This document shows, one piece after another, positions 53,881 to 54,305 of a stretch of 64,000 bases of DNA; positions within the stretch are counted from its first letter, which is position 1; each line of letters opens with the position of its first letter. A program made the translations under genes and the position numbers. The notes below the pieces were generated by a model. The model saw nothing but the letters and a program-made list of their open reading frames with translations. It was not told the DNA's origin and ran no database searches. The DNA comes from Candidatus Colimorpha enterica (GTDB taxonomy: Bacteria; Bacillota; Clostridia; Oscillospirales; CAG-272), in contig FR891099.1 in assembly GCA_000433515.1 (NCBI GenBank), forward strand, positions 397-64,396, written 5' to 3'.

Positions 53881-53932
53881 AGCATACACCTCATAATTAT
53901 TTCGGTAGGAGACTGCCTGTGTATGCCGTGTC

Positions 53933-53970
53933 GTTCTAATATTGTTCTAACAATTCTAACAAATTTCTAA
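53933..53970 (+). repeat. four direct (G)TTCTAA(C) repeats at 11/9/11-nt spacing; inverted copy at 54006-54012
   Basis: GTTCTAAtattGTTCTAAcaaTTCTAACaaatTTCTAACaaaag. Lies 170-200 nt left of the tRNA-fragment core. The pattern resembles arm-type recombinase or RDF sites. Confidence 0.5.
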
Positions 53971-54138
53971 CAAAAGTGCCGAATGTCGCTCATTTTCGCT
54001 ATTTATTAGAACCCATTGGAAAATCAGCGTTTTTTGAAGTTGAACGCCAAAAAGCCTTGATGTGACTGGGTTTTTTACGGGGACAAGACGACCTGAAAGT
54101 TACTGAAAAAACCGATAAAGTTATGTTTGTTGAAAAGA

Positions 54139-54193
54139 CTCGAAATGCGTTTGCCCTTTGGGCACGTGGGTTCGAATCCCACACTCTCCGCCA
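54139..54193 (+). pseudogene. 3' fragment of a type-II tRNA (tRNA-Ser CGA-like): anticodon loop to CCA only; probable att core
   Basis: CTCGAAA | TGCGT | TTGCCCTTTGGGCAC (variable arm) | GTGGG TTCGAAT CCCAC (T arm) | ACTCTCC G CCA. The 5' acceptor (GGAGAGT), the D arm and the 5' anticodon stem are absent upstream. Confidence 0.75.
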
Positions 54194-54203
54194 TACGAAA
54201 AAT

Positions 54204-54228
54204 GACTTGGGATCATCCAAGTCTTTTT
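54204..54228 (+). terminator. terminator immediately after the tRNA fragment
   Basis: GACTTGG-GATCAT-CCAAGTC followed by TTTTT. Confidence 0.7.
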
Positions 54229-54248
54229 CATTTGGGATTCAAATATGT

Positions 54249-54270
54249 ACGCCCGCATTTCTACGGGCGT
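54249..54270. terminator. second hairpin, between the tRNA fragment and the convergent HTH gene
   Basis: ACGCCCG-(8 nt)-CGGGCGT followed by TTT on the plus strand. Confidence 0.4.
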
Positions 54271-54305
54271 TTTCGAGGTTATATTGAAGAAATTATGGGA
54301 GGATG

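What the first reader, a model, noticed from the sequence alone, without database searches (positions are those of the whole stretch)
53890..54305. tRNA-Ser 3' fragment with terminator and flanking TTCTAA repeats: junction between two elements (tandem accretion?)
Only the anticodon loop, variable arm, T arm, 3' acceptor and CCA of a type-II tRNA are present (54139-54193). A clean terminator follows. The 5' half is absent. That is the signature of a displaced att core. To its left lie four (G)TTCTAA(C) direct repeats at ~10-nt phasing plus an inverted copy, like arm-type sites. To its right, an integrase module begins. One consistent model is two elements integrated in tandem at the same tRNA gene, with the intact tRNA lying beyond element A and outside this window.
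Basis: partly seen in the sequence, partly recalled or inferred. Interest (0 to 1): 0.6.

Follow-up and report, generated by a model that had tools for sequence, protein, structure and literature searches.

The report
Split tRNA-Ser marks conjugative-element junction
The tRNA-Ser fragment is real and marks the seam where one large conjugative element inserted into the anticodon loop of a tRNA-Ser gene lying beside its neighbour's integrase. This is a known kind of element stacking, but related sequences suggest the split gene was the neighbour's own spare tRNA.

Summary
Window 54138-54193 is the anticodon loop to CCA of a tRNA-Ser(CGA) with no 5' half, followed by two terminator hairpins. Five TTCTAA motifs are clustered to its left.

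It is a site-specific junction between two conjugative elements:
- A lies to the left and is about 74 kb.
- B lies to the right, with HTH-int-xis fused to a truncated Tad operon.

The shared core is only 9 nt (ACTCGAAAT, the anticodon loop plus one base each side), not 55 nt.
- A's right arm is 98-99.8% identical across metagenome contigs up to that core. Beyond it, it joins at least six different tRNA-Ser 3' halves and two non-tRNA sequences.
- The 3' half travels with the right-hand integrase module. In a horse-gut MAG the same module carries the intact gene.
- A's far end, 74 kb away, shows the same junction type: a third element's arm, the core, a different 3' fragment, then A's own integrase. 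TTCTAAC motifs occur there too, which supports their role as arm-type sites.

Relatives indicate these elements break the host tRNA-Ser and carry a complete replacement copy. The next element then lands in that copy. This resembles phage "tRNA-dependent lysogeny", here in conjugative elements. It is a new variant of a known kind, of moderate interest.

The parts
53287..53880 (-). First gene of element A at its right end: a 197-aa protein with two excisionase-type HTH_17 domains (HTH197).
   Evidence: Pfam HTH_17, 2 stretches, E = 1e-16. NCBIfam excisionase-family domain, weak. 34% identical to the equivalent first gene of element C. 24% identical to HTH209.
53890..54137 (+). Right (P) arm of element A's attachment site.
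   Evidence: 98-99.8% identical in L009-L016 up to window 54146, then divergent.
53934..53971 (+). Four direct (G)TTCTAA(C) repeats, start-to-start spacing 11, 9 and 11 nt. Candidate arm-type protein-binding sites of element A. They overlap predicted - strand promoters of HTH197.
   Evidence: clustering. (promoter-like sites 53982->53953 and 53923->53896). The same motif, GTTAGAAC x2 spaced 21 nt, lies on A's other arm next to int_A in L171 and L172. TTCTAA pairs also occur in the int-proximal arms of relatives.
54004..54012 (-). Inverted copy of the repeat (GTTCTAATA on the - strand).
   Evidence: I16-I18.
54138..54146 (+). Common core O, ACTCGAAAT: the 7-nt anticodon loop CTCGAAA (anticodon CGA at 54141-54143) plus one base on each side. 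This is the point of strand exchange.
   Evidence: 24 sites from 17 sequences share A-CTCGAAA-T (one has G after it). All four combinations of left and right partner occur. Homology breaks here on the right side and on the left side.
54147..54193 (+). 3' remainder of a tRNA-Ser(CGA): 3' anticodon stem, long variable arm, T arm, acceptor 3' strand, CCA. Non-functional as it stands.
   Evidence: Identical to the 3' part of intact tRNA-Ser(CGA) genes in L027-L029. The folded arms are present.
54199..54228 (.). Bidirectional intrinsic terminator 1: an A run, hairpin GACTTGG-GATCAT-CCAAGTC, then a T run. It ends the tRNA gene on + and the convergent int-HTH209 operon on -.
   Evidence: The scan finds it on both strands. 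Fold. Conserved in L027-L029.
54249..54274 (+). Second hairpin (ACGCCCG-CATTTCTA-CGGGCGT) followed by TTTTC.
   Evidence: Conserved in L027 and L028.
54306..54935 (-). 209-aa HTH protein (HTH209), the last gene of the B integrase module. Distant homologue of HTH197.
   Evidence: The position is conserved in relatives, as 186-aa and 179-aa proteins after int.
54954..56165 (-). Tyrosine integrase int_B (403 aa from the ATG at 56165).
   Evidence: Pfam Phage_integrase plus SAM-like N domains. PDB match to the 6EMY 'Int protein' over residues 122-379. A 61%-identical relative sits next to an intact tRNA-Ser(CGA). 34% identical to int_A.
56291..56488 (-). Excisionase-type HTH protein (xis, 65 aa).
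   Evidence: Pfam HTH_17, E = 6e-17. NCBIfam excisionase-family domain, E = 1e-15.
56481..56667 (-). 53-aa ORF (56481-56642) and the breakpoint at about 56665-56667. Here the integrase module is fused to a truncated tadC of the B backbone.
   Evidence: The intact relatives L021 and L022 (96% identical) match window 64000->56665 and then diverge inside tadC. That gene is 289 aa there and 167 aa here.
56668..64000 (-). Backbone of element B: Tad/Flp pilus operon, three Flp-like pilins and a SpoVG-like gene. It runs off the window.
   Evidence: GC is 51.8%, against 45.7% for A.
1..53889 (-). Body of element A: ParAB, SpoVG, Flp/Tad, relaxase, coupling protein, VirB4-like ATPase, CHAP hydrolase and cargo. 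It continues about 20 kb beyond the window's left end, to int_A.
   Evidence: Pfam. Leftward extension in L017, L170 and L171.

Best explanation
The fragment is the right-hand attachment junction (attR type) of a roughly 74-kb integrative conjugative element, A.

A's integrase exchanged strands inside the 7-nt anticodon loop of a tRNA-Ser(CGA) gene, using the core ACTCGAAAT. This left A's P arm joined to the gene's 3' remainder and its terminators. The P arm carries the TTCTAAC arm-type sites.

The tRNA gene that was hit lies immediately beside the HTH209-int-xis module of a second element, B. It was most likely B's own complete 'replacement' tRNA-Ser gene, not a host gene.

Elements of this integrase family appear to behave as follows:
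- They share only about 9 nt with the target.
- They leave an orphan host 5' half.
- They bring a whole tRNA-Ser(CGA) gene about 150-190 nt inside their integrase-proximal end.

That intact gene is the only site with both anticodon-stem half-sites, so it becomes the landing pad for the next element. The result is a stack: C in A's tRNA, and A in B's tRNA.

Precise excision of A, together with whatever lies in its tRNA, should rebuild the intact tRNA next to int_B.

Shown: the fragment, the 9-nt break point, the linkage of each 3' half to the right-hand integrase, motif recurrence on both arms of A, and the architecture of relatives.

Inferred: the chemistry of strand exchange, which protein binds TTCTAAC, the order of arrival, and that the window's own B once carried the U unit and 5' half.
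For: 1. Break point.
- L009-L016 carry A's right end at 98-99.8% identity up to window 54146.
- Beyond that point they continue with five different tRNA-Ser 3' halves and two non-tRNA sequences.

2. Linkage of the 3' half to B.
- L028 has an intact tRNA-Ser(CGA) with the identical 3' half, followed by both terminators, HTH209 and int. It is 93% identical to window 54138-55672.
- In place of A's arm, L028 has a 163-nt unit (U) plus a matching 5' half.

3. The gene is mobile, not host.
- In L028 and L029 the U-tRNA unit follows, exactly at ACTCGAAAT, two different host promoters and host 5' halves (GGAAGCG.., GGATAGG..).
- Those 5' halves cannot pair with ACTCTCC. The adjacent 5' half, GGAGAGT, pairs 7/7.
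- The two contigs share only about 340 nt and have different flanking genes.

4. Same architecture in diverged lineages.
- L042-L048 (int 61% identical): orphan host 5' half + core + about 150 nt with two TTCTAA + complete tRNA-Ser(CGA) + terminator + HTH + int + xis, next to hemN and lepA.
- L064 (int about 40% identical) and L051 (about 37%) show it too.
- Orphan stacks are seen in L028 and L111.

5. A's other end.
- L171 and L172 read: two different left partners + ACTCGAAAT + a different 3' fragment + terminator + GTTAGAAC x2 + int_A (413 aa). ARAGORN finds no tRNA there.
- int_A and int_B are 34% identical.

6. A and B are distinct elements.
- Their Tad modules are about 68-70% identical.
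- GC is 45.7% against 51.8%.
- A carries a full conjugation set.

7. Concept precedent. Phage integrases with a roughly 10-bp core that do not rebuild the tRNA, while the phage carries a same-isotype tRNA (PMC10865867).
Against: - The window's own array was not followed to its outer ends. No orphan 5' half or U unit of B was seen for this genome. B's ownership of the tRNA therefore rests on relatives (L028, 93% identical).
- L027 carries U, the same tRNA and both terminators, then diverges at window-equivalent 54280 into genes that do not look mobile. So the tRNA and terminators could be a native locus of some host, with B's boundary at about 54280.
- A's own complete tRNA was not observed. 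A could be a classical element carrying only a 3' half.
- No experiment shows integrase activity, binding to TTCTAAC, or expression of any element-borne tRNA.
- The repeats also overlap promoter-like sites of HTH197 and could be operators instead.
Confidence: 0.72

Rival explanations
1. Classical tandem accretion. Two elements are integrated side by side at a host tRNA-Ser gene. Each carries the same roughly 55-nt tRNA 3' core. The fragment is a displaced copy of that core, and an identical intact gene lies at the outer left end.
For: - Two, in fact three, elements abut through directly oriented tRNA-Ser 3' fragments.
- Tandems of elements with distantly related integrases of the same specificity are well documented (PMC5704250; PMC12084326).
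Against: - The fragments at the C|A and A|B junctions differ everywhere except the 9-nt core and the generic T-loop.
- The 34-nt 3' end of the fragment (54160-54193) occurs once in the window, allowing up to 3 mismatches.
- A's arm joins at least six different 3' halves.
- Orphan 5' halves are joined to non-tRNA DNA, so the tRNA is not rebuilt at the junction.
Confidence: 0.1
2. The tRNA and its terminators are native chromosomal DNA of the host. A integrated into the host's own tRNA-Ser anticodon loop. B is a separate element whose left boundary is at about 54280, just downstream of the tRNA terminators.
For: - L027 shares window 54138-54280 at 92% identity and then continues with non-mobile-looking genes: DUF6577, DUF6935 and transporters.
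- An inverted copy of the core (TTTCGAG, 54271-54277) lies at that divergence point.
Against: - The same tRNA plus U follows orphan 5' halves of at least two different hosts that cannot pair with it.
- The architecture tRNA-terminator-(HTH)-int recurs with unrelated tRNA sequences in lineages with 61%, 40%, 37% and 34% integrase identity.
- L028 is a mosaic of L027-like and window-like variants across 54194-54280, as expected for homologous element arms.
Confidence: 0.12
3. The window shows the attP of one circular or circularly permuted element. A and B would be two parts of the same replicon, so the fragment is simply that element's attP core.
For: The layout (arm with repeats, core, tRNA 3' half, terminator, int) is what an attP looks like. 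Both flanks encode related HTH proteins.
Against: - A has its own integrase, xis and 3' fragment at its other end.
- The Tad, SpoVG and YodL modules are duplicated at only about 68-70% identity.
- GC differs by 6 points.
- B's backbone exists independently in L021 and L022.
- A's arm is found with many other partners.
Confidence: 0.03
4. The TTCTAA repeats are not recombination arm sites. They are operators or promoter elements of the HTH197 gene, for example autoregulation of the element's first gene.
For: - The repeats lie 45-85 nt upstream of the HTH197 start.
- On the - strand, one repeat supplies the -10 hexamer (TAGAAT) of a promoter-like site with an extended TG.
- Element C has a different triple repeat (TTCTCCCC) at the same position upstream of its HTH gene.
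Against: - The motif recurs between the terminator and the 3' end of int_A on A's other arm, where there is no promoter for an HTH gene.
- It also recurs inside the int-proximal arms of relatives, upstream of their tRNA.
- The two roles are not mutually exclusive.
Confidence: 0.25

Closest known systems
Tandem accretion and 'matryoshka' composites of ICEs, IMEs and CIMEs in Firmicutes (ICESt1/ICESt3 family; Faecalibacterium conjugative mobilome)
   Same: [quoted passage not shown]
- The neighbouring integrases are only distantly related but share specificity.
- Decayed residents are common. B here has lost part of its Tad operon and everything between it and xis.
Sources: PMC5704250 and PMC12084326.
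   Different: - In the described cases the incoming element uses the attR that contains the 3' end of the target gene, and junctions repeat the same core.
- Here the common core is 9 nt in the anticodon loop.
- Each junction carries a different 3' half.
- The target appears to be a complete tRNA gene carried by the resident, so the composite is formally nested about 250 bp inside the resident's end.
tRNA-dependent lysogeny of actinobacteriophages (Guerrero-Bustamante & Hatfull 2024, PMC10865867)
   Same: - A tyrosine integrase with an attB inside a tRNA gene.
- A common core of about 10 bp, so the tRNA is not rebuilt at the junction.
[quoted passage not shown]
- Putative arm-type sites flank the core.
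   Different: - Those are phages of Actinobacteria. These are conjugative elements of gut Clostridia.
- Here the replacement tRNA lies directly beside attP, without an obvious promoter of its own. It may be read from the orphaned host promoter, which is an inference.
- It is re-used as the next attachment site, producing arrays.
- Dependence on the tRNA is untested here.
Anticodon-loop class of tRNA integration sites (Williams 2002 sublocation scheme; Islander islands, PMC4383910)
   Same: - The crossover segment is the 7-nt anticodon loop, flanked by the symmetrical anticodon stem.
- A tyrosine integrase is encoded next to the tRNA gene.
- A displaced tRNA fragment marks an island end.
The Williams scheme is cited from my own knowledge. 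The Islander abstract was seen.
   Different: - Islander-type islands restore the gene with island sequence at the junction.
- Their regenerated gene and displaced fragment share a long identity block. That is not the case here.
Tn916/Tn1549-type tyrosine integrases with excisionase
   Same: - The gene order xis -> int at the element end.
- A SAM-like core-binding domain plus a catalytic domain.
- A weak but full-length match to the 6EMY/6EN0 'Int protein'. That this is Tn1549 Int is from my own knowledge.
- Catalytic motifs GLRRSE, HDLRH and the Y in ANIYAH are visible in the sequence.
   Different: - Identity is low (E about 4e-7).
- Tn916 and Tn1549 insert into AT-rich sites with low specificity.
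- These integrases are specific for the tRNA-Ser(CGA) anticodon loop, with rare secondary sites (L010, L012).

Membership tests
Integrative and conjugative element (element A) | Encodes a relaxase, a coupling protein and a VirB4-type ATPase or mating-pore genes. | tested here: met
   Relaxase 20876-22372, T4SS-DNA_transf/TraG-D_C 17203-19095, TraG P-loop/AAA_10 13270-15624, PrgI, CHAP.
Integrative and conjugative element (element A) | Encodes its own integrase and is bounded by attachment sites. | tested here: met
   int_A (413 aa) with xis lies about 20 kb left of the window in L171 and L172, in contigs collinear with the window. ACTCGAAAT is present at both ends.
Tandem accretion array of integrative elements | Two or more elements side by side, separated by directly oriented att sites sharing a core. 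| tested here: met
   C|A (L171) and A|B (window) junctions both read P arm + ACTCGAAAT + tRNA 3' fragment on the same strand.
Tandem accretion array of integrative elements | Each junction repeats the same extended core containing the 3' end of the target gene. | tested here: not met
   Only 9 nt are common. The 3' halves differ.
Tandem accretion array of integrative elements | Elements excise singly or as a composite. | not testable with these tools
   This needs PCR or long reads. Indirect hints: contig breaks around the junction in several assemblies, and an L028-type intact site exists.
Classical tRNA-gene island (Islander type) | Island sequence regenerates an intact tRNA at the junction with the host 5' part. 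| tested here: not met
   Host 5' halves are joined at the core to non-tRNA DNA in L028, L029, L042, L064 and L111. Acceptor strands are mismatched.
tRNA-dependent lysogeny-like integration | Short (about 10 bp) common core inside a tRNA gene. | tested here: met
   The 9-nt core ACTCGAAAT is defined by 24 sites.
tRNA-dependent lysogeny-like integration | [quoted passage not shown] | tested here: inconclusive
   Met in relatives: L028 and L029 (B-type module), L042-48, L064 and L051, where ARAGORN finds tRNA-Ser(CGA). In the window itself that gene is split, and no intact copy is present.
tRNA-dependent lysogeny-like integration | The element-borne tRNA is required for viability of cells carrying the integrated element. 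| not testable with these tools
   This needs genetics. The host's tRNA-Ser(CGA) copy number is unknown.
tRNA-dependent lysogeny-like integration | The element is a temperate phage. | tested here: not met
   The flanking elements are conjugative. The junction region 53200-56700 has no match in plasmid records and only two short, weak matches in phage records.
Anticodon-loop tRNA integration class | The crossover lies within the 7-nt anticodon loop. | tested here: met
   All homology breaks fall at 54138-54146, which is the loop CTCGAAA plus the closing base pair. The exact cleavage positions were not determined.
Tyrosine recombinase (lambda/Tn916-like integrase) | A Phage_integrase catalytic domain with the R..HxxR..Y residues and an N-terminal core-binding domain. 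| tested here: met
   Pfam PF00589 E = 3e-22, PF13102, PF14659. The motifs are visible in the translation. PDB hits to XerH and 6EMY Int.
Tyrosine recombinase (lambda/Tn916-like integrase) | An N-terminal arm-binding domain that recognises repeated arm-type sites on both att arms. | tested here: inconclusive
   The TTCTAAC motif lies on both arms of A, and about 95 residues precede the SAM-like domain. No binding data or domain assignment is available.

The most novel reading that the evidence does not exclude
Gut Clostridia may harbour a large family of conjugative elements that practise an ICE version of tRNA-dependent lysogeny.

- They cut the host tRNA-Ser(CGA) in its anticodon loop without repairing it.
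- They deliver a complete replacement tRNA-Ser gene about 150-190 nt inside their integrase end, possibly transcribed from the orphaned host promoter.
- That fresh gene is the preferred landing pad for the next element.

Arrays would then grow by serial nesting. On one side they leave a stack of roughly 200-nt orphan units (U + 5' half + core). On the other they leave junctions of the type 'arm + core + 3' half + terminator + integrase', such as 54138-54193. Host translation of UCG codons would depend on whichever element arrived last.
Probability: 0.55. Interest if true: 0.65.

Novelty: new variant of a known kind. Interest (0 to 1): 0.5.

Why it matters
Island-finding tools assume that a tRNA-targeting island regenerates the gene and leaves an identical displaced fragment. 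They define island ends from that identity block. Elements with a 9-nt core and a different fragment at every junction would be missed or mis-delimited, and so would the arrays they build.

If the replacement-tRNA reading holds, three things follow:
- It extends a mechanism shown so far only in actinobacteriophages to conjugative elements that are abundant in the human and animal gut.
- It explains how broad-host-range elements can use a tRNA target whose acceptor stems differ between hosts.
- It gives a simple rule for why elements pile up at one locus and can be cis-mobilised together.

It also suggests that an essential tRNA can act as an addiction device for the most recently arrived element.

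Tried and rejected
tRNA and RNA-family searches
- ARAGORN on the window found no tRNA.
- Rfam at gathering threshold found only a pemK RNA elsewhere.
- Rfam at permissive E-values gave a plastid 3'UTR family on the - strand and a tmRNA T-arm piece. Both are tRNA T-arm look-alikes and carry no information.

Collection scans
- A viral-contig scan for A's arm end found nothing.
- Plasmid records had no match to 53200-56700. Phage records gave two short, weak matches.
It gave only four or five informative loci and not A's left junction.

Look-ups that led nowhere
- ORF 26-850 (+) is spurious. The real gene there is on the - strand and runs off the window.
- The 107-aa SpoVG start variant is recorded only on a 612-nt contig.
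I reached it through a homologue search and cluster members.
- The ParA look-up gave no new junction contexts.
- Loci of the P0092-type integrase (59% identical) had no tRNA within 6 kb, so they were uninformative about the target.

Ideas considered and dropped
- Pseudo-att similarity at the tadC breakpoint. It shares only 'ACTCG', which is too weak.
- L010 as A's circular attP. The flank is an open 66-codon frame cut by the junction and holds no tRNA, so it reads as a secondary site inside a gene.
- Taxonomic assignment. One source labels a protein of A 'Candidatus Colimorpha enterica' (Bacteroidales). This is probably a binning artefact and I did not use it.
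Full report
**1. What is in the sequence**

Window 54138-54193 (+) reads A-CTCGAAA-T followed by GCGTTTGCCCTTTGGGCACGTGGGTTCGAATCCCACACTCTCCGCCA. These are the anticodon loop (anticodon CGA, 54141-54143), 3' anticodon stem, long variable arm, T arm, acceptor 3' strand and CCA of a type-II tRNA.

- ARAGORN finds no tRNA in the whole window. The DNA to the left of 54138 has no resemblance to a 5' half.
- A genome-collection scan with the variable-arm/T-arm part (54146-54182) found three MAG contigs (L027-L029). 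In each, ARAGORN calls an intact tRNA-Ser(CGA), and each gene matches the fragment through to its CCA end.
- Two hairpins follow the fragment. The first is 54204-54223, flanked by A and T runs; the scan finds it on both strands. The second is 54249-54270 followed by TTTTC. The stretch folds with z = -4.9.
- To the left, TTCTAA occurs at 53934, 53945, 53954 and 53965, and inverted at 54006-54011.
- The window holds only 12 TTCTAA in total against about 37 expected, and five lie within 78 bp.
- To the right, on the - strand, are a 209-aa HTH protein, a 403-aa tyrosine integrase, an excisionase-type protein and a 53-aa ORF.

The same junction is present in independent assemblies (L001/L004, L003, L002).

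**2. The two flanks are different conjugative elements**

The left flank, A, occupies window 1-54146. Reading in the direction of its - strand, it encodes:
- HTH197, ParA, ParB, SpoVG, two Flp-like pilins and a Tad operon;
- a 2793-aa SNF2/methylase protein, a Toprim protein, YodL and a MOB relaxase;
- ArdC, a coupling protein, PrgI, a VirB4-like ATPase, CHAP and cargo.

The right flank, B, carries a second Tad/Flp/SpoVG set that is only about 68-70% identical in DNA. GC is 45.7% for A and 51.8% for B.

B is damaged.
- Intact relatives (L021, L022; 96% identical) match window 64000->56665 and then diverge inside tadC. That gene is 289 aa there and 167 aa here.
- The integrase module 54147-56667 is therefore fused to a truncated backbone.

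**3. Where recombination happened**

Metagenome contigs that carry exactly the HTH197 protein (L009-L016) are 98-99.8% identical to the window from 53108 up to 54146. They lack the IS. Beyond 54146 they continue with unrelated DNA:
- five different tRNA-Ser 3' halves (L009, L011, L014, L015, L016);
- two non-tRNA sequences (L010, inside an open reading frame, and L012).

On the other side, L027-L029 match the window from 54138 rightward but have a tRNA 5' half to the left.

A compilation of 24 sites from 17 sequences shows an invariant A-CTCGAAA-T, with one G exception. All four partner combinations occur:
- 5' half | 3' half;
- 5' half | non-tRNA;
- arm | 3' half;
- arm | non-tRNA.

These correspond to attB, attL, attR and attP/secondary-type sites.

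**4. Whose tRNA is it?**

The 3' half travels with the right-hand module.
- L028 has the intact gene, both terminators, HTH209 and int at 93% identity to window 54138-55672.
- In L028 and L029 this gene is preceded by a 163-nt unit, U, which contains AGTTCTAAGA twice.
- U begins exactly after the ACTCGAAAT of an orphan tRNA-Ser 5' half driven by a canonical promoter.
- The two contigs have different promoters, different orphan 5' halves (GGAAGCG.., GGATAGG..) and different neighbouring genes. They share only about 340 nt.
- The orphan acceptor strands cannot pair with ACTCTCC. The 5' half next to U (GGAGAGT) pairs perfectly.

So U plus a complete tRNA-Ser(CGA), its terminators, HTH and int form the mobile unit. 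The host gene is left broken.

The same layout, with unrelated U and tRNA sequences, is seen elsewhere:
- next to a 61%-identical integrase in L042-L048, beside hemN and lepA; ARAGORN finds an intact tRNA-Ser(CGA) there;
- next to integrases about 40% and 37% identical, in L064 and L051.

L028 and L111 show stacks of orphan units.

**5. A's other end**

I followed A leftward through collinear contigs: L017 (99.99% identical to window 1-15331), then L170 and L171.
- A continues through a phase-variable type I R-M system, an ImmA/ImmR-like pair, a Y-family polymerase, a sigma-like gene and xis, ending at a 413-aa integrase (int_A, 34% identical to int_B).
- Beyond int_A, in window orientation, L171 reads as follows:
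  - element C's HTH201 gene and an arm with TTCTCCCC x3;
  - ACTCGAAAT;
  - a different tRNA-Ser 3' fragment and a terminator;
  - GTTAGAAC, 13 nt, GTTAGAAC;
  - the end of int_A.
- L172 has a different left partner but the same core and right side.
- ARAGORN finds no tRNA in either contig.

This gives four results:
- A is about 74 kb. This is an inference from collinearity.
- The array holds at least three elements.
- Each junction has its own 3' fragment, linked to the integrase on its right.
- The TTCTAAC motif lies on both arms of A.

The last point is the expected signature of arm-type sites.

The repeats also overlap promoter-like sites of HTH197. An operator role is not excluded.

**6. 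Mechanism proposed**

Shown: points 1-5 above.

Inferred:
- A tyrosine integrase of this family exchanges strands within the anticodon loop of an intact tRNA-Ser(CGA) gene.
- The element does not rebuild the gene. It brings a complete copy just inside its integrase end.
- That copy is the only site in the cell with both anticodon-stem half-sites, so the next element lands there.
- Serial events would give: host 5' half-core-U(B)-5'(B)-core-U(A)-5'(A)-core-[C]-core-3'(A)-int_A...A...arm(A)-core-3'(B)-term-HTH209-int_B...B.
- The window's feature is the 'arm(A)-core-3'(B)' junction.

Alternatives for the order of events cannot be excluded without the outer ends of the array. One is that B integrated at A's attR and the 204-nt unit was then deleted between direct cores. 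Another is that B integrated through the core inside its own tRNA.

**7. Comparison with what is known**

- Tandem and nested composites of ICEs, IMEs and decayed elements at one att site are well described in Firmicutes (PMC5704250; PMC12084326).
- The short core, unrepaired tRNA and element-borne tRNA of the same isotype match 'tRNA-dependent lysogeny'. That has been shown experimentally for actinobacteriophages and suspected for one Lactobacillus prophage (PMC10865867).
- A full-text search for that term returned 23 papers. Of the 20 titles and abstracts listed, none concerned a conjugative element.
- Islander-type logic, in which the island regenerates the gene, does not apply here (PMC4383910 abstract).
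- The integrases are generic lambda/Tn916-like tyrosine recombinases.

**8. Verdict**

The feature is real, and it is a junction between stacked conjugative elements.
- The surrounding evidence points to a variant not described for conjugative elements in the literature I searched: replacement tRNA genes that serve as successive landing pads.
- Confidence is high for the junction and the 9-nt core. It is moderate for the replacement-tRNA and nesting model as applied to this particular genome.

Noticed in passing
window 51521-53107: An IS1182-type insertion sequence of 1587 bp (transposase 51549-53033, terminal repeats CAGACTGTCGA). It is flanked by a 21-bp duplication, AAGCACCCTTGACGGGTGCTA, which is itself a hairpin. 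The IS is absent from the otherwise 98-99.8% identical copies in L009-L016, so the insertion is recent.
   Followed up: yes
window 51136-51199 (-): A strong Rfam match to the pemK RNA motif (RF02913, 73 bits against a gathering score of 34.8). It lies just upstream of the parA-parB operon of element A and not next to a PemK toxin gene. Relatives of the integrase module do carry a PemK_toxin gene next to xis (L042).
   Followed up: no
window 56624-57127 and the breakpoint at about 56665: B's tadC is truncated after about codon 154 and fused to the 53-aa ORF-xis-int module. Intact relatives (L021, L022) continue with DUF4320 and further genes. B therefore looks like a deletion derivative. No relaxase, coupling-protein or VirB4 gene is seen in the roughly 17 kb of B backbone available (window plus L021/L022), but B's right part was not reached.
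   Followed up: partly
window 54271-54277: TTTCGAG, an exact inverted copy of the 7-nt core, lies right after the second terminator. This is the point where L027 stops resembling the window (54280). The MFE fold pairs it with the anticodon loop. It may be chance, or a second recombination site.
   Followed up: no
L028 1695-1966 (and L111, L029): Tandem units of about 204 nt (U + tRNA 5' half + core). There are two identical copies in L028 and a mixed stack in L111. They look like tiny att-flanked leftovers of successive integrations. In L111 the 5' half linked to U is identical to the host's orphan 5' half, which hints at gene conversion between repeats.
   Followed up: partly
L010 1-200 and L012 1-20: A's right arm is joined at the core to non-tRNA DNA. 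In L010 the flank is an open 66-codon frame cut by the junction. Apparently this is a secondary integration site inside a protein-coding gene.
   Followed up: partly
L171 12940-12985 (window orientation: left of A's left junction): Element C carries three TTCTCCCC repeats at the same position relative to its first HTH gene and to the core as A's four TTCTAAC repeats. This suggests element-specific recognition motifs with a shared TTCT start.
   Followed up: no
L017/L170, about 4-14 kb left of the window start: A's cargo includes a type I restriction-modification system. Two hsdS genes flank a XerD-like recombinase, a phase-variable 'shufflon' layout. Further left are a peptidase M78 / HTH_3 gene pair (an ImmA/ImmR-like layout, by my own knowledge) and a Y-family DNA polymerase.
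   Followed up: no
window 27151-35532 (-): A 2793-aa protein combining MutS domain I, an Eco57I-like methylase region and an SNF2/ResIII helicase, in the middle of element A.
   Followed up: no
window 48318-48809 and 62484-63249: Arrays of short Flp-like pilin genes (DUF6133): two in A and three in B, each next to a SpoVG-like gene. The copy number differs between otherwise near-identical contigs (two in L003, three in L021 and the window).
   Followed up: no
L170 19657-20139 (protein P0275): NCBI names this protein of element A as from 'Candidatus Colimorpha enterica', which the taxonomy places in Bacteroidales. The element has Firmicutes-type conjugation genes and dockerin-bearing cargo. This is probably a binning or labelling artefact in the source MAG.
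   Followed up: partly
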